Assembly (NCBI GenBank): GCA_030704615.1
Contig: CM060732.1
Span: forward strand, 28,148,001 to 28,212,000
Length of the DNA stretch: 64,000 nucleotides
Reading direction: 5' to 3'
From: Takakia lepidozioides
Taxonomy: Eukaryota; Plantae; Bryophyta
The position numbers were made by a program, and so were the translations under genes. Within the stretch, counting starts at the first letter, position 1. Each line of letters starts with the position of its first letter. Below are positions 2,860-31,032 of the stretch, piece after piece. The notes under the pieces were generated by a model that was not told where the DNA came from, searched no databases, and saw only the letters and a program-made list of their open reading frames with translations.

Positions 2860-3014
2860 TGTCGTGCGCATACATATCGCTACACAACTACATCACACAC
2901 TAGTATACCACTAGTCCACCACTAGTCTAGCCACTAGTCCAACCACTAGGCTACAACTAGTCAGTCACTAGGCTACCACTATGCTGCCCACTATGGCAGT
3001 CACTAGTCCACACA
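2860..3014 (-). repeat. Terminal repeat 'B' (3' terminus of copy A)
   Basis: TGTCG...CCACACA. Homologous to 19661-19841 and 20172-20371. Built from CACTAG units. Confidence 0.9.
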
Positions 3015-3027
3015 ATCGCCCCCCTAG
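3015..3027 (-). promoter_or_regulatory. Polypurine tract
   Basis: Minus strand CTAGGGGGGCGAT directly before the TG of repeat B; the same tract is at 20372-20384. Confidence 0.8.
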
Positions 3028-3274: not shown

Positions 3275-3934
3275 CTATCCCAAGCAGTGTGGACACAACC
3301 AATCTCCGTCAGGAACCTTCTCAAGAGGTGGTGTCAAGCATCCCATATGCCAACCCCTTGAGCATCGATCACACACCAGCATGGTGGCTGCCCCTTTGGC
3401 AGACCCACAGAGCATGCATCTCAAACCTGCAGATACCACTGCCAAGTTTGGGTCAACTCTGCCATCGACATTGGGAAGGTGACATGGCGAACAATTATGC
3501 ACATGGTCCTTCCAAGTCATGCCATCCCGACCCTCTAAGATCAGGACCCCTGAGGGCAATACCTCTCGAACCCTCAGAATAACATGCCCTGCAGTATCAT
3601 CCAGAGTCGTAGGAGCAGTCTGCTGCAAATAAACATAGTCACCAGGGCTAAACCTCCGAACCCCAGGACGATATCCTCCACCACGTATAGTGGCATACCT
3701 CAACGTATCACGGTGTTGTGCAATGGCAAGGTTCTCAAAAGCCATAGGCATGACTTTCTTGAACAACTCTGCACGCTGATCACATGCACGTACCCACACG
3801 TCCGGATCGTCAAGGTTAAGGACTTGAGCAGTGTCCCTACGAATGGCTGCAGGCAAATCCGGCTCTCGGCCAAAGAGAAGGAAATATGGTGAGAAGGAGG
3901 CAAGTGATGCTTGTTTGCTGAACCTGTAGCCCAT
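3275..3934 (-). CDS. Integrase C-terminus plus PHD finger (copy A)
   Basis: SPYFLLFGREP, then C4HC3: CMLC...CDRC..GWHMGC.TPPL..VPDGDWLCPHC. Separated from the integrase core by a ~50-bp deletion relative to copy B. Confidence 0.9.
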   Translation of the reverse strand: MGYRFSKQASLASFSPYFLLFGREPDLPAAIRRDTAQVLNLDDPDVWVRACDQRAELFKKVMPMAFENLAIAQHRDTLRYATIRGGGYRPGVRRFSPGDYVYLQQTAPTTLDDTAGHVILRVREVLPSGVLILEGRDGMTWKDHVHNCSPCHLPNVDGRVDPNLAVVSAGLRCMLCGSAKGAATMLVCDRCSRGWHMGCLTPPLEKVPDGDWLCPHCLG

Positions 3935-3936
3935 GG

Positions 3937-5271
3937 CTAACCAAGGAAACCCCTCTTCACTGTCTGAACAACTCTCTCTGCTAAGCCATCGGCCTCAGGA
4001 TGATCCCGAGAAGTGGTGCGGGGGTCTATCAAGGCTTTATCACACAAAGCCTGAAACTCCCCCAAGAACTCTCTCCCTTGGTCCGTGAGTACCTCAGCTG
4101 GAGCACCAAATCGGCTAAGCACACGATCCAAGAATGCATACGCAGCCCCCTCACTAGCCTTGTCAGGCAATGGAACCAACTCAATCCACTTGGAGAAGTG
4201 TTCCACCATCACCAACATATATCTGTGGTGGCGCATAGTCAGTGGCAACGGTCCTGCGAAGTCAAGACTCCACCTGTAGCCCAATCCCATGATTGATAAA
4301 GGATGCAACTGTGGTGTAGGGGCGTTGAATGAAGCACGCACCCTGTCACACACCATGCACCTAGCCACGAACTGTTGCTCCTCTGTATGCATACCACGCC
4401 ACCAATACTGCCCCTGCAGTAAACTGTGAGTGCGTAGCACTCCAAAATGCCCCAACTCCTCATGGGCATGCCGCACTAACCGTGCACGCTGTGTAGGGTG
4501 AGGCACAATCCTCACCCGACCATCCTCCCACACTCGAAGTAGGTGTATCCCCTCCCATTTGAACCTCTTGGCTCGTTGCAGGATCCGATCCCTCTCCCTG
4601 GCAGTCACAGTGGCTGCCGTGTCTCCCGTGCGGAGGTAGTCCAACACAGCCGAATCCTCATGTATATCTCTGGCACCACCTGGCTCATCACTAGCCTCAG
4701 GGTCCTCAGACACTCCGTCTACAGTCATCCCTGTTGTAGGTCCAACCTGACCTCCCGATGCCAAGATACACAAAAATGCAGATGCGTGCCATCCCGGCAC
4801 CATCTCCTCATCCGTCTCACCATGCCACCAAGCTCCTGTGTCATCCTGCTGGCTCATGCATGGATTGCAACTCAATCCATCCGCATCCCGATTGACCAAA
4901 CCTGGTCGATGCACAATCTGAAAGTCATACTCCTGGAGTATGAGTGCCCACCGTGCAAGCTTCCCCGTAAGCTTGTCTGACTCCATCAACCACTTGAGTG
5001 GCTGGTGATCCGTGACAAGGGTGAAAAGATTGTCGTATAGATAGCACCTGAAGTGTGCCACGGCCCACACTGCAGCTAAGCACTCTCCCTCATATGAGCT
5101 GTACTTAGCCTCTGTAGCGTTGTTCAAGCGGCTAGCATAAGCCACTACGAACTCTCTTCCCTCATCATCCACCTGTGTGAGCACCGCTCCAAGCCCCAGC
5201 ATGCTCCAATCCGTATGCAGCTGAAAGGGACGCCCCCTGATAGGTCGTCTCAGGATAGGCGCCGAGGTCAA
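3937..5271 (-). CDS. RNase H plus integrase core (copy A)
   Basis: FQLHTDWS..GLGAVL, TDHQPL; HEELGH...CMVC zinc motif; WSLDFAGP, LTDQGREF, GLAER. Confidence 0.95.
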   Translation of the reverse strand: MTSAPILRRPIRGRPFQLHTDWSMLGLGAVLTQVDDEGREFVVAYASRLNNATEAKYSSYEGECLAAVWAVAHFRCYLYDNLFTLVTDHQPLKWLMESDKLTGKLARWALILQEYDFQIVHRPGLVNRDADGLSCNPCMSQQDDTGAWWHGETDEEMVPGWHASAFLCILASGGQVGPTTGMTVDGVSEDPEASDEPGGARDIHEDSAVLDYLRTGDTAATVTARERDRILQRAKRFKWEGIHLLRVWEDGRVRIVPHPTQRARLVRHAHEELGHFGVLRTHSLLQGQYWWRGMHTEEQQFVARCMVCDRVRASFNAPTPQLHPLSIMGLGYRWSLDFAGPLPLTMRHHRYMLVMVEHFSKWIELVPLPDKASEGAAYAFLDRVLSRFGAPAEVLTDQGREFLGEFQALCDKALIDPRTTSRDHPEADGLAERVVQTVKRGFLG

Positions 5272-5319
5272 CCTCGCCTTGAGCTCTTGAAAAGCTCGTT
5301 CCTGATCATCTTCCCACTG

Positions 5320-6357
5320 TCACTCCTGGTCCACCTTGGTCAGCTTGGTTAGAGCCTTTGCAAGGGTACTAAATCCCTTGACAAACCGTCTATAATAATT
5401 TGCCAACCCCATGAAAGCTCGAACTCGGCTCACATCCGTGGGGCGTGGAATTTGTGCAATGGCCTCTACCTTAGTCTGCTGTACCCCCAATCCTCCAGGA
5501 AATATCATGTGACCCAGATACTCAATCTGGTTGTGGAAAAACTTGCACTTCCCCGAATGCAACTTCAATCCGTGCGCTCTCAAGCGCTCCAATACCACCT
5601 GAAGGTGTCTCTCATGCTCCTCCATCGTAACACTAAAGATGATGATGTCATCTATGTAGCACCGAGCAAAGCCCACCCCTGCTAGAATCCTATCCATGAC
5701 TCTCTGAAACTCTGCAGGAGCATTCTTAAGCCCAAATGGTAAGAACCGCCACTGATATAGGCAATCCTTGCCGTGCTCATTGATCCCCCATAATGCCGTC
5801 TTCTGCTTGTCCGTCTCCTTGATTGGCAACTGGTGATATCCGGATCGTAAATCCAAAGTGCTAAAGGCCTTAGCATGCCCGATGGCATCAAAGATCTCCT
5901 CTGGTGTTGGCATGGCATACTTATCGGACTTGGTCTGACGATTTACAGGCCGGTAATCACCGCACATACGTCTCTCCGTCCAATTGCCATAGACATCCTT
6001 CTTTGTTGGCATCACTGTGGCTGAAGCATACTCTCCACCAGAGAGCTCCACCAAACCTGCCTCCTAGAGATCTTGAGTCCTCATCTGAATCAAAGACCTC
6101 TCCATGTCACTGTATCTATAGGGTCTCCGAAAGATTGGCGTGTCAGTGGCCAACTTGATACGGATCTCTTGATCCTTCAGTGCTCCCAAGTCCTTCAAAC
6201 TGAAGGCAAAGCAATTCTTGTAAGCCCTCAGGAACCGCCGTATACGTTGTCTCTCTCCTCCGGTGACAATGGGTCCAATGTCAGGCTCCCAATTGTCCTC
6301 CGTAACTGCAACCTTAAGTCCAGTGGGCTTAGAGGTAGAGGACGCGTCCAGTGGTTG
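5320..6357 (-). pseudogene. Reverse transcriptase (copy A), in frame with the DNMT ORF
   Basis: [28 protein letters not shown]. The frame continues from 6357. Additional stops at 6064-6066 and 5320-5322. Confidence 0.95.
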
Positions 6358-7620
6358 CTATGTTGCAACCTCTTGAGCAGTACTCCCTGCCTGCTCAGTC
6401 AATGACAAGGCCTCATCCTGCCCCATCATCTCATCCTTGAGGACCTCCTCAACCGGAGAAGAATCCCCAACCTCATCCATCACAGCCGCCTTGGCTGCCA
6501 ACTCCCTCTGAACCTCGAGCACCTCCCACGTGTGCCATGGATGCATGCACCCCGTGGTCCTTACATGCTCGCCCCCACCAACTGCCTGTACCGTCTCGGT
6601 AGGCAGAGAGACCATTGAGGGAAGTGTACTCCGCACTCTGCGTTCCTTAGCCAAAGCCAAGCTGATAATCCAGGTCAAGCAATTGAGATCCATTGCTTGC
6701 CCCAACACTTGACGACGTGATGCCTCAGAAAGAGACGACACCGCCGTGGTACCAGTGGTAAAACCCATTGCCCGCTCACGCTCGTCAGCATTAGGCTCCA
6801 CTAACTTCTGCAACTGAGCATCCCACAGGAGGCCAGGTCCACTATCCCGGAAAGCATGCGATCCTGGGAAGCTGAGCAGTGTAGGTAATGCTGCTCGTGG
6901 TTGACCCACCTTGTTGACCACTGCCAAAGGCAAACGGTCATCGTGTCTCACACGCTGAGACTGCCTCCCTGTGTCCAGAATGTTATCCACTGTGAGATGT
7001 GCTGGCCGCTGCACCCCATCAAATGCACGCTTGAGCAGTGCGGGTGGCATCAAGTTAGTCCACCATAGCCGTGGACGATGAGCCCGTGACCCCACTGTAG
7101 CTGCATCTAGCAACACTGCTGACCCAAGCCACGACCGGACTTGATGCACACTGGCCATCACCCTGGCCCGAGAATCGCCCATCAGTGGCACATTCTCCAA
7201 GATGTATGCTGGAGATACAGCTTGATGAAACTGCAAGTGGCGCAAAACCCGCACCATCTCCCAAAACAGACCCGACCTCGAGTCTCGCAATCCATTGCCA
7301 TGCCCGGCTGATGAATGCCCTTGGCAGGGCCAACCTGCCACTACCAGATCAATGGAGCCATCCCGCTCCAAATCCTGCGCCCCCAGCAACGAAATGTCTG
7401 CTGGCAAGGCCTGCTGATATCCACGAATTGCAGACACCGACAACAACTCAGGGTACCGCTGCACCAACTGAGCAACATGGCGAAGTGAAACACGTCGTGC
7501 AGTCTCATCCCTCTCCACATACAGGTAATGTCGAACTCGTATACCTGCTTGTAACACAGCAGCCAATCCGGTGCTGATCCCGCCAAACAAGTCCAGAAGA
7601 CAAATGCCTTCATCGATACT
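6358..7620 (-). CDS. DNMT3-like C5 cytosine methyltransferase domain in the polyprotein (copy A)
   Basis: Motif I LLDLFGGISTG, IV GWPCQG, VI ILENV, VIII AHRPRLWWTNL, IX ERERAMGF, X RRQVLGQAM, in canonical (non-permuted) order. Confidence 0.93.
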   Translation of the reverse strand, partial: SIDEGICLLDLFGGISTGLAAVLQAGIRVRHYLYVERDETARRVSLRHVAQLVQRYPELLSVSAIRGYQQALPADISLLGAQDLERDGSIDLVVAGWPCQGHSSAGHGNGLRDSRSGLFWEMVRVLRHLQFHQAVSPAYILENVPLMGDSRARVMASVHQVRSWLGSAVLLDAATVGSRAHRPRLWWTNLMPPALLKRAFDGVQRPAHLTVDNILDTGRQSQRVRHDDRLPLAVVNKVGQPRAALPTLLSFPGSHAFRDSGPGLLWDAQLQKLVEPNADERERAMGFTTGTTAVSSLSEASRRQVLGQAMDLNCLTWIISLALAKERRVRSTLPSMVSLPTETVQAVGGGEHVRTTGCMHPWHTWEVLEVQRELAAKAAVMDEVGDSSPVEEVLKDEMMGQDEALSLTEQAGSTAQEVAT

Positions 7621-9067
7621 GCCACACAATAGGTGTGGTGTCCAATGGAGACAATTGAGGTGGTCCTGGTGCAATCCCCACACTCTCCTCCTCTCCTGAC
7701 GGTACAAAAGCCTCCACCCAGGCTTGTTGCACCCGTCGATCAGCATCCCGTTGCAAATCCTTGCTCGTGCCCCACAATGGAGTCTGAGCAACCATGGTAG
7801 GCAACTCCGCCATACCATACATGTCATCCTGCTCTCTCGGAGGTGGTACATCCTCTGAATGAGCATTGCCCTCAAGCAACTCTCTAGGCCAACTCACTGC
7901 CGCTGTGAATGCTGCTAGTGTCGGCATCTTGCCTCGCTGGGCAACCGCAACTCCTCCTATGAACGTCACAGGGAGCTGCACACGCCGGCCCTCCCCTGAC
8001 TGCCATGCAGGCCTATAGGAAGCTGACTCCTCCCAAAAATCCAGGGTGAAGCCCATGGGGTACAACACTGCCCCACCAACCAGGACATCGTATGAGACTG
8101 CGTCTGTCACAATGGCCTTGGCTCGCATCACTGAGCCATCTGTAGGGTGATCTGGCCGTAGTCTGATAGCCAATTCACGCCGTGTCATGCCCCGAGCCTG
8201 CTCCGATCCTCCCAAAGACGTCTGTATCTGGAATGGACAAGGCTCCATATCCACCTCCGTGAGGCCCAAGCCTGCAATAGCAGCTCTGCCTAGCATCAAT
8301 GGCTGAGCTCCCGAGTCCAACAAGACCCGCAGTGGCCGGTACCTCTTGCCTGCCGGTCCACTCAAACAGAAAATGCCATCCTGGTTGTCTAACATGACAA
8401 CTCCAGGTGTCACCATGGCGCGCTCAATGACTGGCCTAGCTGGCAGCTCCATCAACCTGGCAGCTGCAGCTTGCCATGGCACCGCCATGGCAGTCTTGAC
8501 CCTCAAATCCGAGGATCCCTCTGGCACTACACCTCCCACTATCTCCGCAGAAGATGAAGTAACCTCCCCACTCTCACAGAGTGTAGCTGCCAACCTGAAC
8601 ACCTCAGCTGGTCTAACCCCCGGCGTCGCAATCGTGGTAGCCGAAAACAATGGAGCCTGGCACACAGATGTGGCCGCTCCTAGCAGCACACTAGCTGCCG
8701 CAGCCTTGGCAACACTAGGTAGTGGTTCTACCCGTGTAGCTCTCCCCAATGGCATAGTAACCTCCGCCTCGGTAACCGTCGGGCGAGAACTAGGTGCCAT
8801 GGATGGCGTCGACACTGTCTCCGCCAATGTGAATGACTGAGAAAGCCTAGCCTAACGGCTTGCCTCTCCACGCTGTGGATCCAACTCCACCTCTGCACCT
8901 CGTGGCTCAGGAACTCGTGCTGCTCCTCGAGTCACGGCTGCAGCCGACTCCACCTGCACTAGTGGTAGTGCTGCTCCACACATGAATCCCATGCCTCCCA
9001 TATCTCCTCCCTCAGGAGCAGGAGGTGGACCATCCGGCCTTAGAGCCGGTATCACCTGAGCTGTAGC
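7610..9067 (-). CDS. Gag-protease linker and aspartic protease (copy A)
   Basis: LRVLLDSGAQ...YDVLVG. There is a 2-nt frameshift at about 7615 relative to copy B. Confidence 0.85.
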
Positions 9068-9762: not shown

Positions 9763-9763
9763 C

Positions 9764-17552: not shown

Positions 17553-19337
17553 CTCATAAGATGTCTTGGTTGGTGGGGCAGGTTGGTACCCCATGGGCTT
17601 CACCCTGGATTTTTGGGAGGAGTCAGCTTCCTATAGGCCTGGATGGCAGTTAAGGAAGGGCCGACATGTGCAGCTCCCTGTGTGACGTTTATAGGAGGAG
17701 TTTGCGGTTTGCCCATGTGGGCAAGATGCCCACACTAGCAGCATTCACAACTGCAATGACTTGGCCTGGAGAGTTGCTTGAGGGAAACGCTCATTCAGAG
17801 GATGACATACCTCTAGGAGAATATGATGACATGTATGATATGGCAGAGTTGTCTGCCATGGTTGCTCAGACTCCATTGTGGGGCACGAGCAAGGATTTGC
17901 AGCGGGTTGCTGATCGACGGATGCAATAAGCTTGGGTGGAGGCTGTGCTGGTACAGGAGAGAGAGTGGAGTGGAGGAGTGCGGGATTGCACCAGGACCAC
18001 CTCAGTTGTCTCCATTGGACACCACACCTATTGTGTGGCAGTATCCGGATGAAGGCATTTGTCTTCTGGACTTGTTTTGGCGGGATCAGCACCGGATTGG
18101 CTGCTGTGTTACAGGCAGGTGTACAAGTTCGGCGTTACCTGTATGTGGAGAGGGATGAGACTGCACGACACGTTTCACTTCGCCATGTTGCTCAGTTGGT
18201 GCAGCGGTACCCTGAGTTGTTGCCGGTGGCTGCAGTTCGTGGATATCAGCAGGCCTTGCCAGCAGACATTTCGTTGCTGGGGGCGCAGGATTTAGAGCGG
18301 GTTGGCTCCATTGATCTGGTAGTGGCAGGTGGGCCCTGCCAGGGCATTCATCAGCCGGGCATGGCAATGGATTGCGAGACTCGAGGTCGGGTCTGTTTTG
18401 GGAGATGGTGCAGGTTTTGCGCCACTTGCAGCTTCATCAAGCTGTATCTCTAGCATACATCTTGGAGAATGTGCCACTGATGGGCGATTCTCGGGCCAGG
18501 GTGATGGCCAGTGTGCAAGTCCGGTTGTGGCTTAGGTGAGCAGTGTTGCTAGATGCAGCTACAGTAGGGTCACGGGCTCATCATCCACGGCTATGGTGGA
18601 CTAACTTGATACCACCCGCACTGCTCAAGCGTGCATTTGATGGGGTGCAACGGCCAGCACATCTCACAGTGGATAGCATTCTGGACATAAGGAGGCAGTC
18701 TCAGCGTGTGAGACACGATGACCGTTTGCCTTTGGCAGTGGTCAACAAGGTGGGTCAACCTGGAGCAGCATTACCTACACTGCTCAGCTTCCCAGGATCG
18801 CATGCTTTCCGTGATAGTGGACCTGGCCTCCTGTGGGATGCTCAGTTGCAGCAGGTAGTGGAGCCTAATGCTGACAAGCGTGAGCGGACAATGGGTTTTT
18901 ATCACTGGTACCACAGCGGTGTCGTCTCTTTCTGAGGCATCACGTCGTCAGGTGTTGGGGCAAGCAATGGATCTCTATTGCTTGACCTGCATTATCAGCT
19001 TGGCTATGGCTGAGCAACGTAGAGTGCGGAGTACACTTCCCTCGATGGACTCTCTGCCTACCGAGACAGTACATGCAGTGAGTGGGGGCGAGCATGTGAG
19101 GACCACGGGGTGCAGGCATCCATAGCACACGTGGGAGGTGCTCGAGGTTCAGAGGGAGTTGGCAGCCAAGGTGGCGGTGATGGATGAGGTTGGGGATTTT
19201 TCTCGGGTGGAGAAAGTCCTTGAGGATGAGATGATGGGGCAGGCTGAGGCCTTGTCACTGACTGAGCAGGTAGGGAGTACTGCTCAAGAGGTTGCAACAT
19301 AGCAACCACTGGACGCGTCCTCTACCTCTAAGCCCAC
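17553..19337 (+). pseudogene. Inverted fragment of the DNMT-gypsy element (copy C): protease end plus DNMT, frameshifted
   Basis: FGGISTG, GGPCQG, HHPRLWWTNL, and EVAT-TAG-CAACCA at 19300-19308. Confidence 0.88.
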
Positions 19338-19660
19338 TTGTTACAGCCCGCCACAACCTGTCAAAGCCTGTCACAACCCGTCACAACCCCATAGGCCGCA
19401 TGGCACAGCCTGTCACAGCCTGCCACAGCCTATCACAGCCCCTCACAGCCCCACAGGCCATAGGGCACAGCCTGTCACAGCCCGTCACAGCCCCACAGGC
19501 CACTCCTGACAGTTTAGCCATTTCTCCAAGGGGTTTAGCCATGCCAAGCTAGGGTTTGTGTCTCTTGGACTCTAGGCTTCTTTGCACCGAGCTATGGCGG
19601 CTTTGAAGAAATCAGCAAGATATTCTTGCTCTTTCGGCTCCCACACACCACCAATAGTAG
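19338..19660 (-). mobile_element. 5' leader segment of host copy B' (continues at 29526-31032)
   Basis: Matches about 27700-27971 and ends in the GTAG TSD. Confidence 0.75.
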
Positions 19661-19841
19661 TGTTGTGCGCATTCATATCGCTACACAACTACATCGCTGT
19701 CCAAAACCACACAACACATGTGCACACCACACACTAATATACCACTAGTCCACCACTAGTCCAGCCACTAGTCCAACCACTAGGCTACAACTAGTCAGTC
19801 ACTAGGCTGCCACTATGCTGCCCATTATGGCAGTCACCACA
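19661..19841 (-). repeat. Terminal repeat B2
   Basis: Homologous to 20172-20371, with small deletions. Confidence 0.9.
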
Positions 19842-19842
19842 A

Positions 19843-20169
19843 TGATAAAGAAGAAGAATACAAGCACAAGCTCATGCGAGCTCACAAAGCTAAAGCATAA
19901 ACTCATGCATGTATAACCTTATCACTCAAATACAAGTCAAGCCAAGTGCACCCCACGCCATGGGGAATCCACACTACGGTGCCATAGCTAGGCGCGGTGA
20001 GGCTCAACTCGAGAAAGATGAGCCTCCCGCGCTTGCCGTGAAGATAACCATTCCAGGGCCTAAATCTGCCTTGACCCCTGGATTGATACTTGGGCCAATC
20101 CCAAATGTCAATATATAAAAGCTAGCTATTTCTTAGCTAGTTTCATACTAGTGGTAAAATAACTTGACA
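19843..20169 (-). repeat. Terminal repeat A2 (327 bp)
   Basis: TGATAAAG...AACTTGACA; homologous to 29199-29525 and 30707-31032. Confidence 0.9.
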
Positions 20170-20171
20170 GC

Positions 20172-20371
20172 TGTCGTGCGCATACATATCGCTACACAAC
20201 TACATCGCTGTCCAAAACCACACAACACATGTGCACGCCACACACTAGTATACCACTAGTCCACCACTAGTTCAGCCACTAGTTCAACCACTAGTCCAAC
20301 CACTAGGCTACAACTAGTCAGTCACTAGGTTGCCACTATGCTGCCCACTATGGCAATCACTAGTCCACACA
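20172..20371 (-). repeat. Terminal repeat B1 (200 bp), adjacent to the PPT
   Basis: TG...CA; PPT at 20372-20384. Confidence 0.9.
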
Positions 20372-20631
20372 ATCGCCCCCCTAGCTGGTGCTTAGGTCCC
20401 TCTAAGTTCAGGTAGCCACAAGATGTGATAGTTATCATAGCCTCACTAAGTCCTCCACCACTGTTCCTACTACACTCAAACTCGATAGATCAAGAGGCGG
20501 GGTGCATGAGTTGCCCCATCGTTAGTCGCCGTCTTGCAACCTGTGAACTTGAGCTGGGGATCTCATGTATTGACTCCTATGAGCTTGGCCTCCCATATCT
20601 TGTTAGCTGCCTCCAATCATGTCCACTGCCA

Positions 20632-22110
20632 CTATCCCAAGCAGTGTGGACACAACCAATCTCCGTCAGGAACCTTATCAAGAGGTGGTGTCAAGCATCC
20701 CATATGCCATCCCCTTGAGCATCGATCACACACCAGCACGGTGGCTGCCCCTTTGGCAGACCCACAAAGCATGCACCTCAAACCTGCACGTACCACTGGC
20801 AAGTTTGGATCAACTCTGCCATCAACATTGGGAAGGTGTCATGGCGCAGAATTACGCACATGTCCTTCCAAGTCATGCTATCCCGACCCTCCAAGATCAG
20901 GACTCCTGAGGGCAATACCTCTTGAACCCTCAGAATAACACGCCCTACAGTGACATCCAGGGTCGTAGGAGTAGTCTGCTGCAAATAAACATAGTCACCA
21001 GGGCTAAACCTCCGAACCCCAGGACGATATCCTCCACCACGTATAGTGGCATACCTCAACGATATGGTGCTATGCAATGGCAAGGTTCTCAAAAGCCATG
21101 GGCATGACTTTCTTGAACAACTCTGCATGCTGATCACATGCACGTACCTACACGTCCGGATCATCAACGTTGAGGACTTGAGCAGTGTCCCTACGAATGG
21201 CTACAGGAAAATCCGGCTCTCGGCCAAAGAGAAGGAAATATGGTGAGAAATATGCAAGTGATGCTTGTTTGCTGAACCTGCAGCCCATGGCTAACCGAGG
21301 CACCTGAAGATCCCAATCTCCTAGGTGTCCTTTCTGCAAGCCATACTTGCGCAGACCCTCTTCACCGTCTGAACACTCTCTCTGCCAAGCCATCGGCCTC
21401 AGGATGATCCCGAGAAGTGGTGCGGTGGTATATCAAGGCTTTATCACACAAAGCCTGAAACTCCCCCAAGAACTCTCTCCCTTGGTCCGTGAGTACCTCA
21501 GCTAGAGCACCGAATCGGCTAAGCACACAATCCAAGAATGCATACGCAGCCCCCTCACTAGCCTTGTCGCGCAATGGAACCAACTCAATCCACTTAGAGA
21601 AGTGCTCCACCATCGCCAACACATATCTGTGGTGGCGCATAGTCAGTGGCAATGGTCTTGCGAAGTCAAGACTCCACTTGTAGCCCAATCCCATGATTGG
21701 TAAATGATGCAACTGGGGTGTAGGGGCGTTGAATGAAGCACGCACCATGTCACACACCATGCACCTAGCCACAAACTGTTGCACCTCTGTACGCATACCA
21801 CGCCACCAATACTGCCCCTGCAGTAAATTGTGAGTGCGTCGCACTCCAAAATGCCCCAACCCCTCATGGGCATGCCGCACTAACCGTGCATGCTGTATGG
21901 GGTGAGGCACAATCCTCACCCGACCATCCTCCCATACTTGGAGCAGGTGTATCCCCTCCCACTTGAACCTTTTGGCTCGTTGCAGGATCCGATCCCTCTC
22001 CTTGGCAGTCACAGTGGCTGTCATGTCTCCAGTACGGAGGTAGTCCAACACAGCCGAATCCTCATGTATATCTCTGGTACCACCTGGCTTATCACTAGCC
22101 TCAGGGTCCT
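20632..22110 (-). pseudogene. Integrase plus PHD (copy B), frameshifted
   Basis: HEGLGH..CMVC, WSLDF, LTDQGREF. PHD sequence matches 3275-3420. Confidence 0.9.
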
Positions 22111-22197
22111 TGGTCCAATGTCAGGCTCCCAATTGTCCACCGTAACTACAACCTTAAGTCCAGTGGGCTTAGAGGTAGAGGATGCGTCCAGTGGTTG

Positions 22198-23616
22198 CTA
22201 TGTTGCAACCTCTTGAGCAGTACTCCTTACCTGCTCAGTCAATGACAAGGCCTCATCTTGCCCCATCATCTCATCATCGAGGACTTCCTCAACCTGAGAA
22301 AAATCCCCAGCCTCATCCATCACCGCCACCTTGGCTGCCAACTCCCTCTGAACCTCGAGCACCTCCCACGTGTGCCATGGATGCCTGCACCCCGTGGTCC
22401 TCATATGCTTGCCCCCACTCACTGCCTGTACCGTCTCGGTAGGCAGAGAGACCAGCGAGGGAAGTGCACTCCGCACTCTACGTTGCTCAGCCATAGCCAA
22501 GCTGATAATGGAGGTCAAGCAATTGAGATCCATTGCTTGCCCCAACACCTGACGACGTGCTGCCTCAGAAAGAAATGACACCGCCGTGGTACCAGTGATA
22601 AAACCCATTGCCGGCTCACGCTTGTCAGCATTAGGCTCCACTACCTGCTGCAACTGAGCATCCCACATGAGGCCAGGTCCACAATCCCGGAAAGCATGCG
22701 ATCCTGGGAAGCTGAGCAGTGTAGGTAATGCTGCTCGTGGTTGACCCACCTTGTTGACCACTGCCAAAGGCGAATGGTCATCGTGTCTCATATGCTGAGA
22801 CTGCCTCTCTATGTCCAGAATGCTATCCACTGTGAGATGTACTGGCCGCTGCACCCCATCAAATGCACGCTTGAGCAGTGCGGGTGGTATCAAGTTAGTC
22901 CACCATAGCTGTGGACGATGAGCCCGTGACCCCATTGTAGCTGCATCTAACAACACTGCTAACCCAAGCCACGACTGGACTTGATGCACACTGGCCATCA
23001 CCCTGGCCCGAGAATCGCCCATCAGTGGCACATTTTCCAAGATGTATGTAGGAGATACAGGCTGATGAAGCTGCAAGTGGCGCAAAACCCGCACCATCTC
23101 CCAAAACAGACCCGACCTCGAGTCTCGCAATCCATTGCCATGCCTGGCTGATGAATGCCCTTGGCAGGGCCAACTTGCCACTACCAGATCAATGGAGCCA
23201 ACCCGCTCTAAATCCTGCGCCCCCAACAACGAAATGTCTATTGGCAAGGTCTGCTGATATCCACGAACTGCAGCCACCGGCAACAACTCAGGGAACCGCT
23301 GCACCAACTGAGCAACATGGCGAAATGAAATATGTCGTGCAGTCTCATCCCTCTCCACATACAGGTAACGCCAAACTCGTACACCTGCCTGTAACACAGC
23401 AGCCAATCCGGTGCTGATCCCGCCAAACAAGTCCAGAAGACAAATGCCTTCATCCGGATACTGCCACACAATAGGTGTGGTGTCCAATGGAGACAACTGA
23501 GGTGGTCCTGGTGCAATCCCCGCACTCTCTTCTACTCCTGATGATACAAAAGCCTCCACCCAGGCTTGTTGCACCCGTCGATCAGCAACCCACTGCAATC
23601 CTTGGTCGTGCCCCAC
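22198..23616 (-). CDS. DNMT3-like methyltransferase (copy B)
   Basis: LLDLFGGISTG, SWPCQG, ILENV, AHRPQLWWTNL, LGQAMD. Ends EVAT-TAG-CAACCA. Confidence 0.92.
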   Translation of the reverse strand: MGHDQGLQWVADRRVQQAWVEAFVSSGVEESAGIAPGPPQLSPLDTTPIVWQYPDEGICLLDLFGGISTGLAAVLQAGVRVWRYLYVERDETARHISFRHVAQLVQRFPELLPVAAVRGYQQTLPIDISLLGAQDLERVGSIDLVVASWPCQGHSSARHGNGLRDSRSGLFWEMVRVLRHLQLHQPVSPTYILENVPLMGDSRARVMASVHQVQSWLGLAVLLDAATMGSRAHRPQLWWTNLIPPALLKRAFDGVQRPVHLTVDSILDIERQSQHMRHDDHSPLAVVNKVGQPRAALPTLLSFPGSHAFRDCGPGLMWDAQLQQVVEPNADKREPAMGFITGTTAVSFLSEAARRQVLGQAMDLNCLTSIISLAMAEQRRVRSALPSLVSLPTETVQAVSGGKHMRTTGCRHPWHTWEVLEVQRELAAKVAVMDEAGDFSQVEEVLDDEMMGQDEALSLTEQVRSTAQEVAT

Positions 23617-24962
23617 AATGGAGTCTGAGCAACCATGGCAGGCAACTCTGCCATATCATACATGTCATCCTGTTCTCCTGGAGGTATGTCATCCTCTGAA
23701 TGAGCGTTTCCCTCAAGCAACTCTCCGGGCCAAGTCAGTACAGCTGTAAATGCTGCTAGTGTGGGCATCTTGCCCCGCTGGGCAACCGCAACTCCTCCTA
23801 TAAACGTCACAGGGAGCTGCACACGCCAGCCCTCCCCTGACTGCCATCCAAGCCTATAGGAAGCTAACTCCTCCCAAAAATCCAGGGTGAAGCCCATGGG
23901 GTACAACACTGCCCCACCAACTAGGACATCGTACGAGACTGCGTCTGTCACAATGGCCTTGGCTCGCATCACTGAGCCATCTGTAGGGTGATCCAGCCGT
24001 AGTCTGATAGCCAACTCATGCCGTGTCATGCCCCGAGAATGCTCCGATACTCCCAGGGACGTCTGTATCTGGAAAGGACAAGGCTCCATATCCGCCTTCG
24101 TGAGGCCCAAGCCTGCAATAGCAGCTCTGCCCAACATCAATGGCTGAGCTCCCGAGTCCAACAAGACCCGCAGTGGCCGGTACCTCTTGCCTGCCGGTCC
24201 ATTCAAACAGAAAATGCCACCCTGGTTGTCTAACATGAGAACTCCAGGTGTCACCATGGCGCGCTCAATGGCTGGCCTAGCTGGCAGCTCCATCAACCTG
24301 GCAGCTGCAGCTTGCCATGGCGCCGCCGTGGCAGTCTTGACCCTCAAATCCGAGGATCCCTCCGGTACTACACCTCCCACTATCTCCGCAGAAGATGAAG
24401 TAACCTCCCCACTCTCACAAAGTGTAGCTGCCAGCCTGAACACCTCAGCTGGTTTTACCCCCGGCGTCGCAATCATGGTAGCCGAGAACAATGGAGCCTG
24501 ACACACAGATGTGGCCGCTCCCAGTAACACACTAGCTGCCGTAGCCTTGGCAACACTAGGTAGTGGTGCTACCCGTGTAGCTCTCCCCAATGACGTAATA
24601 ACCTCCACCTCGGTATCAGTCGGGCGAGTACTAGGTGCCATGGATGACGTCGACACTGTCTCCGCCAATGTGAATGACTGAGGAAGCTTGGCCTGACGGC
24701 TTGCCTCCCCACGCTGTGGATCCAACTCCACCTCCACACCTTGTGGCTCAGGAACTTGTGCTGCTCCTCGAGTCACTGCTGCGGCTGACTCCACTTGCAC
24801 TAGTGGTAGTCCTGCCCCGCACATATTGGTAGTGGTAGTGGCACCCCTCATTAGTGGTAGTGCTGCCCCGCACATGAATCCCATGCCTCCCATATCTCCT
24901 CCTTCAGGAGCAGGAGCTGGACCATCCGGCCTTGGAGCCGGTACCACCTGAGATGTGGCCAT
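23532..24962 (-). CDS. Linker plus aspartic protease (copy B)
   Basis: LRVLLDSGAQ. Confidence 0.85.
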   Translation of the reverse strand: MATSQVVPAPRPDGPAPAPEGGDMGGMGFMCGAALPLMRGATTTTNMCGAGLPLVQVESAAAVTRGAAQVPEPQGVEVELDPQRGEASRQAKLPQSFTLAETVSTSSMAPSTRPTDTEVEVITSLGRATRVAPLPSVAKATAASVLLGAATSVCQAPLFSATMIATPGVKPAEVFRLAATLCESGEVTSSSAEIVGGVVPEGSSDLRVKTATAAPWQAAAARLMELPARPAIERAMVTPGVLMLDNQGGIFCLNGPAGKRYRPLRVLLDSGAQPLMLGRAAIAGLGLTKADMEPCPFQIQTSLGVSEHSRGMTRHELAIRLRLDHPTDGSVMRAKAIVTDAVSYDVLVGGAVLYPMGFTLDFWEELASYRLGWQSGEGWRVQLPVTFIGGVAVAQRGKMPTLAAFTAVLTWPGELLEGNAHSEDDIPPGEQDDMYDMAELPAMVAQTPLWGTTKDCSGLLIDGCNKPGWRLLYHQE

Positions 24963-24974
24963 GGCAGCGAGCCT

Positions 24975-26417
24975 CTACTCTAGCTGCTGAAGCCGGTTGG
25001 CCATGCCTTTGTCACCACCCTGACCTCCGCATCCTTGGCCATGTTGAGCTTGCCCTTGGCCTGCACCTCGTGCCTGGCCACCTCGTCCTCTCTGGGCTGC
25101 TCCACCTCGCCCCCGACCACCATTGTTCCCTTGGAACTGGCCTGGGCGCAACTCAGGATGCAAACCATAACACTGGGCTTCTCCATGCCCGTACTTGCCA
25201 CAATGCCCACACAACAACTGTGCAGGCTGTGCATGTGCCGGCCCTTTGCCTCCCTCTGGGCAATCCTTCTTGACATGGGGTCCTCCACATGTCCAGCACA
25301 CCACATCCGCCCGTTGTCGGCCAGCAAATGAAGGGAGAGACCCCTGCATCTGAGGTCCTCTCTGCCCTTCCCTGAGCTTCACCTGAGCCCCCTTGTTGCC
25401 TTGAGCATGTTGAGGTAGTGGTTGGCTAGGAGCATCACTACCCCGTGGTGTCTCCTTAGCAAATCCCACCATGACCACTCGTTCCTCCACCATGTTGAGC
25501 TCTATCCGCTCTGCCAACAAAAACACATTTGCTAAGGTGGGTTGGGCCGCTCGTAGGAGAGTTGCATCCCGCACCCTTCTCCTCAGCTCCTTGTCCAATA
25601 TCCTATACCAGAATTGGACTGCCTGAGCTTCCGTAACCTCTTGGGTTACATTTATCAAGTGCCTCATGCGAGTGAAAACCTCCCTCAAGCTCCCAGTCGG
25701 CTTCCGTTGGAACTTTTGCAAACTCCGCAACTTCTCTGTCCTCACCACTTGGTAGTTCCCTCTCAACTCTTCGAAGAATTCCACAATAGGGTTGAAGGCA
25801 GGCACGGGTACTGGTGCTGGTGCGGTAGTAGCTTGGGTGGACGTCATAGCTATGGTACCACCAGTCCTACTAGTCCCACTGCTGCTTGCTGAAGCAGCCG
25901 GTGCAGCTACTGCCCTCGTGGCTCTAGTGCCCCTAGTGATGGAGACATAGTCGAGTGACCAGTACATTCTCCACACCTCGATCTCAACCTCATGCCCCCG
26001 CCTGAACTCATGGTAATCATCTATAGGCGGCCCCTCAAGGTGCTGAAACAGCCCCTTCCATGCCATGAAAGGCGTAAATAGTTGTGGATTGCGCATTTGC
26101 TGCAAATCACACCAACTATCAAACTCTTGGATAAAATCATCCAACTCGATGGTGCCCACCACCCCAGAGTACCTTCGTGGCCCCTTGGTAGCTCCATACA
26201 TCTCCTCCATTGTGTCCCACAACAATGGCAAGGAAACAACTTGCACCGCCGGTATGAGTCATCCTGATTCACAATCCAAATCAGAACCTTTCGTAGAAGA
26301 CACAGGAGGTGAAGGTGGCCTAAACCGCACACCTCGTCTCGTGTACCCACTAGTATCACTAGTGCTCGAACCGGCACTGTCCCCAGCAACTAGTGGCACC
26401 TCCGTGTTGACACTCAA
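24975..26417 (-). CDS. Gag (copy B) with two zinc knuckles
   Basis: CWTCGGPHVKKDC and CGHCGKYGHGEAQC. The stop at 24975 is CAG in copy A. Confidence 0.85.
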
Positions 26418-27149
26418 CCGGTCATGAACATGTCCCTAACCCCCTCTCCACAAGGTAACCGGGTAGAGAACCTGTTGCGGCTTATGGTTTGGAATACTAA
26501 GTTCCTAACATAGCCTACACCTGTACCTGTATCCACCGCAAGCACTCCTATGGTTGGCTGGTCATCACCTCCAACCTCACCACAGGAGAAACAATGATGG
26601 TCTGGCTCGTCATCACCCCAACCTCACCATCGACAGCGTGCTCTAGGACTGGCCAGTGATCAAATCCGGACCAATTACCTATAAAAACAAGCGCCCACAC
26701 AAAACTAGCATGGCGCATAGTCAAGCATGCGGGTATGGAGGGGATCCAAACACAAGAAATTAGAACGACAACTCCCCCATACCAAAAACAACTCCACGGT
26801 GTTGCTCCTACAAGGATACCCCAGCCCAAACCCGGACTGACTCTTGCCTCCACCTACGGAAAGGTCTTGGCCTAATGAGAGGGTGGAAAACTACGAGGAA
26901 GAGAAGCTAAAACAATGCCTAACCCCAACATTCCCTCATCCCAACACTCTTTTTCTCCTCTCTTCCCTCACTTGCATGACCATGGAAATATCATGAAGAT
27001 ACTTCTCAAACCGCCCTCCACGAGCTTCAAAATTCGGCCTTCAAGACCACATGGCTGTCCTTAGGCAGTCCACCAGTGCCTCCACGAGTCAGCACATGCC
27101 TTCCACAGATCAACACGGGCCACCATAGACTAGCACAGGCCCACATAGA

Positions 27150-27815
27150 TCACTAGTCACAGCAATCACTGCCCCACACAGGCCACAGCCTGTCACAGCC
27201 CTACACAGGTCACAGGGGTCACAGCCCCAAAGGCCACAGCCCGTCACAGCCCTACACAGGTTAGAGGGGTCATAGCCCCAAAGGCCACAGCCTGTCACAG
27301 CCCCTCACAGTCCATCACAGCCTGTCACAGCCCTACACAGATCACAGGGGTCACAGCCACAGCCTATCACAGGTCAGAGGGGTCACATGGCACATGGCAC
27401 AGCCTGTCACAGCCCCTCACAGCCCGTCACAGCCCCACAGGCCACAAGGCATAGCCTGTCACTGCCCCTCACAGCCCGTCACAGCCCCATAGGCCACAGG
27501 GCGCAGCCTGTCACAGCCCCTCACAGCCTGTCACAGCCCCAAAGGCCACAGCCCGTCACAGCCCCACAGGCCACAGGGCACAGCCCCTCACAGCCCCTCA
27601 CAGCCCCACAGGCCACTGGGCACAGCCCACCACAGCCCATCACAGCCCCATAGACCACAGGGCACAGCCCATCACAACCCATCAGAACCCATCACAACCT
27701 GTCACAGCTCGCCACAGCCTGGCAACGCCCCACAGGCCACAGGGCACAGCCCGTCACAGCCCCACAGGCCACATGGCACAGCTTGTCACAGCCCGCCACA
27801 GCCCCACAGGCCACT
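27150..27815. repeat. Degenerate CACAGCC array in the element leader
   Basis: Dozens of (GT)CACAGCC(C/T) units; also at 19340-19500. Confidence 0.9.
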
Positions 27816-29198
27816 CATGACAGTTTAGCCATTTCTCCAAGGGGTTTAGCCACGCCAAGCTAGGGTTTGTGTCTCTTGGACTCTAGGCTTCTTTGCACCG
27901 AGCTATGGCGGCTGTGAAGAAATCAGCAAGGTATTCTTGCTCTTTCGGCTCCCACACACCATCAATAGTAGCCCTAAGCCATGAGGAAGATGGTTGCCAC
28001 AAACCAAGCCTTCTTTCTCACTTAGACTCCCCAAACACGCCACTAAACTCAATGGCAAACAACCGAGCCTTGTTGGTTTCCAGCCCTATGAGCACTCATT
28101 CAAGCGTTTCCCTTGGCCATAGCATCTGTCTTAGAGCCTATTCTAGCCCCTTACACCTGCCACTTCAAGAGCCATGCTCTATCTAGGCTTGAGGTTGAAA
28201 CCCCAACTCAGAACACGCTCTACAAGTGTCGGACTGTCACATAAGAGCAGATCAGCCCCTTACCTTCTCTTCTAGTTCTCTAAAGCTTGAAAACAAAAGC
28301 CCAATGGACTGAAGGCATGCTCCACACATGCCCCACTCTCACCACCAGAGAATCAGCCCATTTGCTTTCTTTCTTGTACCCACCAACCTGAAAATACACG
28401 CTTCAGCGGGCTGGAAGCATGCTCCACACATGCCCTATAGGGAAACTAGCCCCTTCCTTCCTTCCTTTCTTGCACTCCCAAACCTGAAAGTACAAGCCTT
28501 CAACAGGCTGAAAGCATGCTCCACACATGCATTGCTCTCACATAAGGGAAGTCAGCCCTTCCCTCTTCCTTGCTTGCCTCCAAGCTTGAAGATGGAAGCT
28601 TCAATGAGCTGAATACATGCTCCACACATGCAACCTCTTCACACAAGGGGTATCAGGCCCCTATTTTGGCTCCTTAGCTCCTTGATGCTCTCTAAGACAA
28701 GACTAAGCACTCCACAGCCCTTGCCAAGCTCCTGAAACCCTAAGGCTTACATTTCCAGCCACAAGACACTCCTCTTGTGGTGCAAGAGCTCTTATTCCAA
28801 GCTCTGAAACCCTAGGTGCACATTCCATGGCCTTGCCGCAACACTTAGCTCCTATTCTAGCCCTGCTCTTGCCATGACAAGAGCCCTCTCAATGCTGAAG
28901 CTCGAGATTGAAACCCAATCTCAACATACTCCACAAAGTGCACTGATTTGCCCCAAGCCAAATCAGCCCTTTCGCTTGGTCTTGTAATCCTGCAGCATGG
29001 TGCTTTCATCTCTGAAGCTGAAGATCGAATGCCAAGGTCTACCACCTCATAACCCACATCGCCTCCGCTTCTAACAAGCAAGAGCTCCACGGTGCTCCTT
29101 GCATAACAACCTGGTTTCTCTCATTCTCAAGCAAAAACCACAAGTGCTACAACTAACTCGTATCTGGCACTCACAGATACGAGCTCATCTTTCTCGGG

Positions 29199-29525
29199 TG
29201 ATAAAGATGAAGAATACAAGCACAAGCTCATGCGAGCTCACAAAGCTGAAGCATAAACTCATGCATATATAACCTCATCACTCAAATACGAGTCAAGCCA
29301 AGTACACCCCACGCCATGGGGAATCCACACTACGGCGCCATAGCTAGGCGCGGTGAGGCTCAACTCGAGAAAGATGAGCCTCTCGCGCTTGCCGTGAAGA
29401 TAACCACTCCAGGGCCTAAATCTGCCTTGACCCCTGGATTGACACTTAGGCCAATCCCAAATATCAATATGTAAAAGCTAGCTATTTCCTAGCTAGTTTC
29501 ACACTAGTGGTACAATAACTTGACA
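29199..29525 (-). repeat. Terminal repeat A1 (5' end of copy B)
   Basis: Homologous to A2; flanked by the GTAG TSD. Confidence 0.9.
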
Positions 29526-31032
29526 GTAGCCCTAAGCCATGAGGAAGATGGTTGCCACAAACCAAGCCTTCTTTCTCACTTAGACTCCCCAAACACGCCA
29601 CTAAACTCAATGGCAAACAACCAAGCCTTGCTGGTTTCCAGCCCTTGTGAGCACTCATTCAAGCGTTTTCCTTGGCCATAGCATCTGTCTTAGAGCCTAT
29701 TCTAGCCCCCTACACCTGCCACTTCAAGAGCCATGCTCTATCTAGGTTTGAGGTTGAAACCCCACCTCACATATGCCCTACAAGTGCTTTTCTTTCACCC
29801 AAGTGGGAACCAGCCCTAGCCCTTCCATTCTAGCTCTCTAAAGCTTGAAAACAAAAGCCCAATGGACTGAAGGCATGCTCCACACATGCCCCACTCTCAC
29901 CACAAGAGAATCAGCCCCTTTGCTTCCTTTCTTACACCCACCAACCTAAAAAATACACGCTTCAGCGGGCTGGAAGCATGCTCCACACATGCCCTACAGG
30001 GAAACCAGCCCCTTCCTTCCTTTCTTGCACTCCCAAACCTGAAAGTACAAGCCTTCAACAGGCTGAAAGCATGCTCCACACATGCATTGCTCTCACATAA
30101 GGGAAGTCAGCCCTTCCCTCTTCCTTGCTTGCCCTCCAACTTGAAGATGAAAGCTTCAATGAGCTGAATACATGCTCCACACATGCAACCTCTTCACACA
30201 AGAGGTATCAGGCCCATATCTTGGCTCCTTGTCTCATTGATGCTCTCTAAGACAAGACTAAGCACTCCACAGCCTTTGTCAAGCTCCTGAAACCCTAAGG
30301 CTTACATTTCCAGCCACAAGACACTCCTCTTGTGGTGCAAGAGCTCTTCTTCCAAGCTCTGAAACCCTAGGTGCACATTCCATTGTCTTGCCACACCTCT
30401 TAGCTCCTATTCCAGCCCTGCTCTTGCCATGATAAGAGCCCTCTCAATGCTGAAGCTCGAGATTGAAACCCAATCTCAACATACTCCACAAAGTGCACTG
30501 CAGCATGGTGCTTTCATCTCTGAAGCTGAAGATCGAATGCCAAGGTCTACCACCTCGTAACCCACATCGCCTCCATTTCTAACAACCAAGAGCTTCACGG
30601 TGCTCCTTGCATAACAACCTGGTTTCTCTCATTCTCAAGCAAAAACCACAAGTGCTACAACTAACTCGTATCTGGCACTCACAGATACGAGCTCATCTTT
30701 CTCGAGTGATAAAGATGAAGAATACAAGCACAAGCTCATGCGAGCTCACAAAGCTGAAGCATAAACTCATGCATATATAACCTCATCACTCAAATACAAG
30801 TCAAGCCAAGTGCACCCCACGCCATGGGGAATCCACACTACGGCACCATAGCTAGCGCGGTGAGGCTCAACTCGAGAAAGATGAGCCTCCCGCGCTTGCC
30901 GTGAAGATAACCACTCTAGGGCCTAAATCTGCCTTGACCCCTGGATTGACACTTGGGCCAATCCCAAATGTCAGTATGTAAAAACTAGCTATTTCTTAGC
31001 TAGTTTCACACTAGTGGTCAAATAACTTGACA
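29526..31032 (-). mobile_element. 5' end of host copy B' (repeat A at 30707-31032 plus leader)
   Basis: Direct repeat of 27968-29525. Confidence 0.8.
30691..30706 (-). promoter_or_regulatory. Putative self-priming PBS
   Basis: Perfect 16-nt reverse complement of 30871-30886 inside repeat A. No TGG tRNA-type PBS at this position. Confidence 0.7.

What the first reader, a model, noticed from the sequence alone, without database searches (positions are those of the whole stretch)
19657..29529. Split terminal repeats A...B-A-B on an integrase-encoding gypsy element: possible integration from a circle cut inside the LTR
Seen: the TSD-bounded copy reads A1-PBS-internal-PPT-B1-gc-A2-t-B2. PPT and PBS define a conventional LTR of B+A, yet the real ends fall at the internal B/A junction, a perfect palindrome GACAGCTGTC (20166-20175). 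The A2/B2 join (CA-t-TG) looks like a 2-LTR circle junction. Copy B' starts with A only and copy A ends with B only. Known: A1..B1A2B2 split direct repeats typify tyrosine-recombinase PAT/Ngaro elements, not DDE-integrase elements. Inference: the cDNA circularises and integrase opens it at an LTR-internal att site, giving permuted proviruses that standard LTR finders would miss or mis-bound.
Basis: partly seen in the sequence, partly recalled or inferred. Interest (0 to 1): 0.92.

Follow-up and report, generated by a model that had tools for sequence, protein, structure and literature searches.

The report
Retrotransposon inserted from inside its LTR
This plant jumping gene and its relatives begin and end in the middle of the repeat that copying should place at their ends, which likely means the DNA copy joins its two ends and is re-cut at an internal site before it inserts, a route long thought to be a dead end and now testable in a laboratory alga.

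Summary
Real and clade-wide. The 9865-bp element (minus strand) reads A1-PBS-internal-PPT-B1-gc-A2-B2 between GTAG duplications. The PPT and a self-priming PBS define an LTR of B+gc+A, but the ends fall at the internal CA-gc-TG site. Two other families (about 70% and 48% RNaseH-integrase identity) in plant DNA within metagenomes repeat this. Of 18 two-ended copies, 10 are A-int-B-A-B, 7 A-int-B and 1 inverted; 15 have a 4-bp TSD and none has normal ends. A DDE integrase is present; no tyrosine recombinase was found. The A|B join sits at the PBS- and PPT-defined ends and is sometimes damaged, like an end-to-end cDNA join. Likely mechanism: the ends join, then integrase opens the left-LTR site. 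Circles are not shown, and why the right site is never cut alone (0 of 21 5' ends) is unexplained for long B. The layout was noted without explanation for KnitGypsy-Dnmt3 (2018) and, as an 8-bp offset, for Chlamydomonas Gypsy-7a (2023). Gypsy-7a is active in lab strains and shows the same PPT-B-gc-A-B pattern, so the idea is directly testable. The scan found this before on other DNA (three notes).

The parts
19657..19660 (+). left target-site duplication GTAG
19661..19841 (-). B2: terminal copy of the U3-side LTR part, ends ACA; 7 nt missing near its start and one 12-nt unit fewer than B1
19842..19843 (-). A2|B2 join: PBS-defined end of A joined to PPT-defined start of B, one shared A
   Evidence: variant joins in run X1
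19843..20169 (-). A2 (327 bp), second copy of A
20008..20023 (-). self-primer site in A2, complementary to the PBS; inferred transcript start region
20166..20175 (.). att site GACA-GC-TGTC at the B1/A2 junction
20172..20373 (-). B1 (about 200 bp), directly after the PPT
20374..20383 (-). polypurine tract
   Evidence: same motif
21365..22120 (-). integrase ORF piece: H2C2 zinc finger and rve core; RT and RNase H deleted just upstream
22201..23655 (-). ORF with C5 cytosine methyltransferase domain (PF00145)
23535..26258 (-). two long ORFs without Pfam match; gag and protease by position (inferred)
   Evidence: weak protease match at the like place in L061
27968..27971 (+). empty copy of the target site inside the element's own 5' region
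29183..29198 (-). self-priming PBS directly after A1
29199..29525 (-). A1: 5' terminus, starts TGTC; self-primer site at 29364-29379
29526..29529 (+). right target-site duplication GTAG
30707..31032 (-). A' of the host copy (B'): 5' end with A only, unrelated DNA beyond
2860..3016 (-). B of copy A: 3' end with B only, unrelated DNA beyond
3275..7893 (-). copy A coding region: methyltransferase, RT, RNase H, integrase, PHD finger (broken by stops and frameshifts)

Best explanation
This is a dead copy of a Ty3/gypsy retrotransposon clade whose inserted copies begin and end at an internal CA-gc-TG site of the LTR, likely because the linear cDNA has its two ends joined and integrase then opens the left-LTR site and inserts the permuted molecule. 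Steps: (1, inferred from base pairing) RNA starts inside A1 and primes itself at the PBS, as Tf1 does. (2, established gypsy biology applied here) PPT priming gives linear B-gc-A-PBS-int-PPT-B-gc-A. (3, inferred) The U5 end is joined to the U3 end, giving the A|B join. (4, ends shown, enzyme inferred) The DDE integrase cuts after CA on both strands of the left site and the gc is lost. (5, shown) Insertion makes a 4-bp duplication. A-int-B copies would come from 1-LTR circles, from cutting both sites, or from later B-by-B recombination, and would be dead because they lack a 3' R.
For: Termini: 18 of 18 two-ended copies end at att halves; a 4-bp TSD is exact in 11 and within one mismatch in 15, against 0 and 12 of 306 mismatched pairs; 3, 5 or 6 bp fit none. 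The att is kept while the rest of the LTR is unalignable: 19 of 20 B/A junctions have spacer GC or its deamination products; the same core stands in L081, L082 and L083. The join lies exactly at the PBS- and PPT-defined ends in the window family, S1 and S2. In S1 and S2, 13 of 18 joins are the family's plain form and 5 are private damaged forms: a 19-20-nt filler, -2 nt, small deletions, loss of about 149 nt of B. Run X1 shows at least four join variants. B1 and B2 of one element are co-derived (11 pairs, 144 differences against a permutation mean of 198, 0 of 100000). Self-priming match of 10-17 nt in 12 of 20 5' ends, above all 100 shuffles each. L020/L019: one insertion with TSD CATT whose ends are the two halves of an inverted att, joined to the body through the self-priming complement, so att cutting, not the cDNA ends, sets the termini. 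rve integrase with D-D-E present; no tyrosine recombinase in 73 ORFs of three elements. Precedent: retroviral integrases cut palindromic 2-LTR junctions after CA (PMC1180852, PMC4372172).
Against: No circle, RNA or enzyme activity was observed; all runs were contigs. Asymmetry: two equal att sites predict A|B-A-int-B copies, but 0 of 21 5' ends and 0 of 10 two-repeat copies show it (p about 0.001 for equal choice). For 6-8-nt B a half-site made of A's end plus B would explain this; for 115-200-nt B nothing tested does. 3 of 18 copies lack a TSD (L055, L060, L066). B2 of L054 ranks 10 of 11 by identity to its own B1. The permutation result is inflated by subfamily structure. 8 of 20 5' ends show no self-priming match above shuffles. 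The 13 plain joins could also be inherited. In the displayed read tables a mixed-flank cluster appears at B's end (35-38 contigs, agreement 0.36) but none at A's start; 119 and 386 rows were hidden.
Confidence: 0.6

Rival explanations
1. No free circle. Integrase cuts the left att of the linear cDNA, holds both halves in one intasome and inserts them. The loose U5 and U3 ends are joined afterwards by host repair: end joining gives A-int-B-A|B, annealing of the two B copies gives A-int-B.
For: Gives both forms with one TSD length; damaged joins with filler DNA look like host repair; a near-even split of 19 B-A-B to 15 B-only 3' ends.
Against: With a 6-8-nt B (Gypsy-7a, -8, -9) the cut-off piece is probably too short to serve as an integrase end before it is joined to A (inference). 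It needs a chromosome break at every insertion. It does not explain the asymmetry either.
Confidence: 0.2
2. Reverse transcriptase makes the join. At the end of plus-strand synthesis it jumps to the other end and copies B again, giving a nicked circle that integrase resolves at the left att.
For: 13 of 18 joins are near-precise with 0-1 shared bases; L020/L019 shows strand switching at the primer complement; it would couple the join to the left end and so give the asymmetry.
Against: The filler join of L007 and the 149-nt loss of L049 look more like repair; no direct test here.
Confidence: 0.11
3. PAT/Ngaro-like copying: the RNA runs through B2 and the A|B join is inherited; B1-gc-A2 is only a template for rebuilding the end junction.
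For: Same layout as VIPER, TATE, Ngaro and PAT (PMC6681497); gives the asymmetry for free; most joins within a family are identical.
Against: PBS and PPT are intact and mark the join exactly in families whose LTRs cannot be aligned; damaged joins are each private; no tyrosine recombinase; a strong-stop DNA from the PBS has no homology to an RNA end in B2 (inference).
Confidence: 0.07
4. Assembly chimera, nesting of solo LTRs or a one-off rearrangement.
For: The window is repeat-dense, has a scaffold gap 2 kb away and an inverted fragment at 17553-19338.
Against: TSD plus empty site in the window; the same layout in 17 further two-ended copies of two other families; published for Klebsormidium.
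Confidence: 0.02

Closest known systems
KnitGypsy-Dnmt3 of Klebsormidium nitens (de Mendoza et al. 2018, PMC5890265; passages and section 9 read)
   Same: Gypsy domains, a C5 methyltransferase in pol, and a repeat layout stated to be that of DIRS-type elements (A-coding-B-A-B). A K. nitens methylase-bearing pol (P0030) is 49% identical to the window's RNaseH-integrase and shares the short D-to-E spacing.
   Different: The paper gives the layout one legend sentence; in the passages read it gives no att site, TSD, priming mode, A-int-B form or mechanism. That P0030 is that very element is my inference. It lies on another branch of the RT tree.
Gypsy-7a_cRei and other Chlamydomonas reinhardtii gypsy families (Craig et al. 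2023, PMC9940879; passages, supplement parts 1 and 281-283 and entry boundaries read by eye)
   Same: The legend says the left LTR lacks the last 8 bp of the right LTR. In the library the internal entry ends PPT + those same 8 nt + gc. 13 of 15 families whose internal entry I saw have this CA-gc end (B about 6-8 nt in families 2, 7, 8, 9; about 50 nt in 3, 5a, 6). PHD finger; D-to-E spacing of 35 in families 6 and 7a (read by eye).
   Different: B is minimal, the site is not a perfect palindrome and the PBS of 7a looks tRNA-type. The offset is noted, not explained. No tool placed these families on my tree; the library does not show left ends except through the 7a legend.
Tf1/sushi and Tcn1 self-priming gypsy elements (PMC7175516, PMC6317226; passages)
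   Same: PBS complementary to a stretch inside the LTR; gypsy domain order.
   Different: They have two full LTRs whose ends are the integrase ends.
PAT, Ngaro, VIPER, TATE split-direct-repeat elements (PMC6681497; passages)
   Same: A1...B1-A2-B2 layout; A2B2 also exists alone in T. cruzi (SIRE).
   Different: They use a tyrosine recombinase; this clade has a DDE integrase, TG...CA ends, PPT, PBS and a 4-bp TSD.
Integrase cleavage of retroviral 2-LTR circle junctions (PFV, PMC1180852; HIV-1, PMC4372172; passages)
   Same: Integrase cuts a palindrome after CA on both strands to give processed ends.
   Different: There the palindrome is the end-to-end join itself, cutting restores the normal order, and it is a side route. 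Here the site is encoded inside the LTR, away from the join, and appears to be the only route.

Membership tests
Ty3/gypsy LTR retrotransposon | RT, RNase H, then rve integrase in pol | tested here: met
   copy A, L007, L061; the focal copy has lost RT-RH
Ty3/gypsy LTR retrotransposon | PBS after the 5' repeat and PPT before the 3' repeat | tested here: met
Ty3/gypsy LTR retrotransposon | TG...CA ends and a short TSD | tested here: met
   4-bp TSD in 15 of 18; 93.4% of plant elements have 5 bp
Ty3/gypsy LTR retrotransposon | two full identical LTRs whose outer ends are the element's ends | tested here: not met
   0 of 18 two-ended copies, 0 of 21 5' ends
KnitGypsy-Dnmt3 type | C5 methyltransferase in pol of a gypsy element | tested here: met
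KnitGypsy-Dnmt3 type | A-coding-B-A-B repeats | tested here: met
KnitGypsy-Dnmt3 type | methyltransferase belongs to the Dnmt3 clade; one clade with the K. nitens element | not tested
   no methyltransferase tree was built; the RT tree has no true outgroup and weak deep forks
PAT/Ngaro/VIPER split-repeat elements | split direct repeats A1...B1A2B2 | tested here: met
PAT/Ngaro/VIPER split-repeat elements | tyrosine recombinase | tested here: not met
   no match in 73 ORFs of 75-85 aa or more from three elements at E 0.01; a very divergent or broken one could be missed
Self-priming (Tf1-type) elements | PBS complementary to an LTR-internal stretch | tested here: met
   12 of 20 5' ends, three different sequences; one of the 12 at another place in A
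Self-priming (Tf1-type) elements | transcript starts at that stretch | not testable with these tools
   only contig runs are held; a TATA-like motif lies about 30 nt upstream in S1 (sequence)
Chlamyvir/REM1 clade | phylogenetic placement with reference elements; chromodomain | tested here: inconclusive
   nearest named relatives are from Klebsormidium, Pleodorina, Tetrabaena; PHD, no chromodomain found; no reference set; REM1 paper not held, REM1 itself is recalled

The most novel reading that the evidence does not exclude
A large, old green-plant clade of DDE-integrase retrotransposons, including the most active gypsy element of Chlamydomonas lab strains, integrates only after its cDNA ends are joined, using an att site hard-coded inside U3. 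It would be the first retroelement for which the 2-LTR circle is the obligatory precursor. The element's own methyltransferase may protect the early-made right-hand site, whose centre is CAG/CTG flanked by CG, so that only the left site is cut (speculation).
Probability: 0.5. Interest if true: 0.92.

Novelty: new variant of a known kind. Interest (0 to 1): 0.82.

Why it matters
Whether end-joined LTR circles can be true integration precursors is an old question in retrovirology; they are usually called dead ends (PMC1180852, PMC4372172). Here a whole clade carries the footprint of that route in every copy examined. An element with the same pattern has 86 new insertions in one Chlamydomonas strain (PMC9940879), so existing assemblies and simple eccDNA work can test it. 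In practice, structure-based LTR finders need two full LTRs with TG/CA ends and a TSD (as in PMC6317226), so they would miss A-int-B copies and mis-bound the rest (inference). The family is very abundant in this host's runs (20292 contigs laid on 1.2 kb in X1).

Tried and rejected
No whole genome is held, so no genome-wide survey was possible. The contig look-up by protein identity was closed, which leaves the ends of the named algal relatives (P0030, P0052, P0084, P0091) unseen. An exact search for the window's A terminus in metagenome contigs found 0. Viral contigs: no relatives. No RNA holder listed; no evidence either way. Our findings by sequence: nothing. REM1 paper not held. Copy A and copy B' as two ends of one element: rejected, flanks differ. 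A 5-bp TSD AGTAG: rejected, 5 bp fits 0 of 18 copies. I first read Gypsy-7a as conventional and reversed this after seeing the end of its internal entry. The control for integrase spacing failed: the conventional element in the window has no readable D-E stretch, so the usual spacing of 36 is recalled. A cluster of 35-36 loose ends before 20368 (agreement 0.56) could not be interpreted. Loci left out of the tallies: duplicates (80 loci fell into 64 groups), loci without a terminus, L020/L019 (counted apart), L021 (B broken by an insertion), L027-L029 and L081-L086 (other families, att only). Datasets S11 and S12 of PMC9940879 (insertion lists) were not in the held text and may bear on the forms of new Gypsy-7a insertions.
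Full report
Observation. The element lies on the minus strand from 29525 to 19661 (9865 bp). It reads A1 (327 bp), PBS, internal region, PPT, B1 (about 200 bp), gc, A2, one T, B2, between GTAG duplications. It sits inside another copy of its own family, and the empty target is visible in its own 5' region at 27968-27971, which argues against a chimera. A1/A2 (95.1%) and B1/B2 (95.6%) have aged alike. It encodes a C5 methyltransferase domain and an rve integrase; RT and RNase H are deleted here but present, with a PHD finger, in copy A. The host is a plant with PPR-DYW genes; I did not identify it. Copy A ends with B and copy B' starts with A, but their flanks differ and a 500-N gap lies between, so they are two insertions.

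What defines the LTR. The PPT stands directly before B. The sequence directly after A is the reverse complement of a stretch about 147 nt into A (14 and 17 nt in the two window copies), as in Tf1 self-priming. Reverse transcription should therefore give LTRs of B-gc-A. The inserted ends fall instead at the B/A junction.

Relatives. A protein search gave 280 relatives; the named ones among the 120 listed are from Klebsormidium and green algae, nearly all with PHD and some with the methylase. An alignment of 19 of them fetched 80 metagenome loci, 64 after merging duplicates. These are plant DNA of unidentified hosts in two main families: S1 (about 64-73% RNaseH-integrase identity) and S2 (about 44-50%). 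Neither LTR aligns with the window's (no hit). Both have the same layout. Of 18 copies with both ends, the window's included, 10 are A-int-B-A-B, 7 are A-int-B and 1 is inverted. A 4-bp TSD is exact in 11 and within one mismatch in 15; mismatched pairs give 0 and 12 of 306; other lengths fit none. L055, L060 and L066 have no TSD. Counting single ends, 21 of 21 5' ends start with A with no B before it, and 34 3' ends are B-A-B (19, one partly deleted) or B only (15); none ends at A. The att core CA-gc-TG with 4-7 palindromic bases is kept in all families: 19 of 20 spacers are GC or its deamination products, and L081-L083 show it too. Self-priming pairs differ in sequence among the three families and exceed all shuffles in 12 of 20 5' ends; 8 do not. 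In the host species' own runs, 35-38 contigs leave the reference at B's end into mixed sequence (agreement 0.36), while loose ends at A's PBS end continue into the PBS (6 contigs, 0.95). No such cluster was displayed at A's start, and most rows were hidden.

The join. In the window family, S1 and S2 the A2|B2 join lies where the PBS-defined end of A meets the PPT-defined start of B. In S1 and S2, 13 of 18 joins are the plain form; 5 are private: a filler of 19-20 nt resembling nearby sequence (L007), -2 nt (L064), a changed end (L066), a small deletion (L069) and loss of all but the last 27-29 nt of B (L049, TSD intact). Run X1 shows at least four variants. B1 and B2 of one element share private changes and are closer than permuted pairs (0 of 100000). 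Subfamily structure adds to that result and L054 is an outlier by identity. This is what an end-to-end join made anew in each cycle would leave; inheritance is not formally excluded.

A natural rearranged copy. L020 and L019 cover one insertion (2755 bp shared at 99.5%, TSD CATT, flanks contiguous in a repeat seen in L055). Its left end is an inverted B with PPT; its right end is B-gc-A, 11 nt of PBS, then the inverted 5' half of A. The two termini are the halves of one inverted att. The simplest reading is a cDNA that folded back at the self-priming complement, closed, and was opened at that att. A later rearrangement or misassembly cannot be excluded, since neither contig spans both ends.

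Enzyme. The integrase has H2C2 and D-D-E. The second D and the E are 35 residues apart in all 108 proteins and all 25 locus frames where the motif was readable; the usual 36 is recalled and my control failed. No tyrosine recombinase was found in 73 ORFs from three elements. On the RT tree the window family, S1 and L027-L029 form a supported group; S2, the Klebsormidium and the chlorophyte elements lie on other branches with weak deep support and no true root.

Mechanism. Shown: ends at the att, loss of gc, 4-bp TSD, join position. Inferred: self-priming, end joining, cleavage by integrase. I put 0.6 on ends joined before integrase opens the left att, 0.2 on linear cutting with repair after insertion, 0.11 on a jump by reverse transcriptase, 0.07 on an inherited join and 0.02 on artefact. 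The open problem is asymmetry: A|B-A-int-B never appears (p about 0.001 if the two sites were equal). Where B is 6-8 nt, the integrase end would have to include the end of A, which exists only across the join; that would force the left site. For B of 115-200 nt the cause is unknown; timing of integrase loading or methylation by the element's own enzyme are untested ideas.

Known work. De Mendoza et al. 2018 state in a figure legend that KnitGypsy-Dnmt3 has DIRS-type repeats with gypsy domains (PMC5890265; passages and section 9). Craig et al. 2023 note that the left LTR of Gypsy-7a_cRei lacks the last 8 bp of the right one (PMC9940879; passages). In their library, read by eye, the internal entry of 7a ends with the PPT, those 8 nt and gc; 13 of 15 families whose internal entries I saw end this way (60 of 158 listed places plus three parts; later families not seen). 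The link between these two notes and an internal att is my reading. Ten literature searches and the passages read showed no paper that explains the layout; subscription papers, the REM1 paper and theses were out of reach, and a 2026 preprint from the field did not mention it in the passages found. Integrase cleavage of palindromic circle junctions is shown for PFV and HIV-1 as a side route. The scan noted the same idea on other DNA (e1-7364823, e1-7364106, e1-9503004). I reached the layout and the circle reading before opening those notes, and they are not independent evidence.

Verdict. A real, clade-wide variant of gypsy biology: layout briefly in print, mechanism not found in print, and testable now in Chlamydomonas. 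Interest 0.82.

Noticed in passing
window 9068-15259 (+): A conventional gypsy element nested in copy A with a 5-bp TSD GTAGC and TGTC...GACA ends; its 5' LTR stops about 27 bp short and runs into coding sequence, probably a deletion.
   Followed up: partly
window 17553-19338: Inverted fragment of the methyltransferase region joined to the tandem repeats of copy B', next to the 500-N gap; a rearrangement or misassembly.
   Followed up: no
window 22201-23655 and 6358-7893 (-): The methyltransferase domain reads as having motif I and the catalytic PC dipeptide; present in S1, S2 and L027/L029; a degenerate remnant seems present in Gypsy-6_cRei (by eye).
   Followed up: partly
window 27150-27820 and 32380-32650: 10-bp tandem repeat arrays in the element's long 5' region, with a similar array in the opposite orientation outside it.
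   Followed up: no
window 32800-33750: Array of 53-bp units with internal palindromes, direct and inverted; possibly a satellite or transposon subterminal region.
   Followed up: no
window 37875-40523 (+): Uninterrupted 882-aa PPR-E-DYW ORF with 303-bp repeats, a likely organelle RNA-editing factor.
   Followed up: no
L060:3193-3201 and L060/L062 3' end: The 3' end keeps the 2-nt spacer and is followed by what may be a 6-bp duplication, like an unprocessed end.
   Followed up: partly
L081-L086: Eukaryotic retrotransposon contigs filed in bacterial MAGs, probably contamination; L082 has a young B-gc-A-B end with B copies 100% identical over 106 bp.
   Followed up: partly
P0001 and relatives: Second D to E distance of 35 throughout the clade, alongside a 4-bp TSD; may reflect a changed intasome geometry.
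   Followed up: partly
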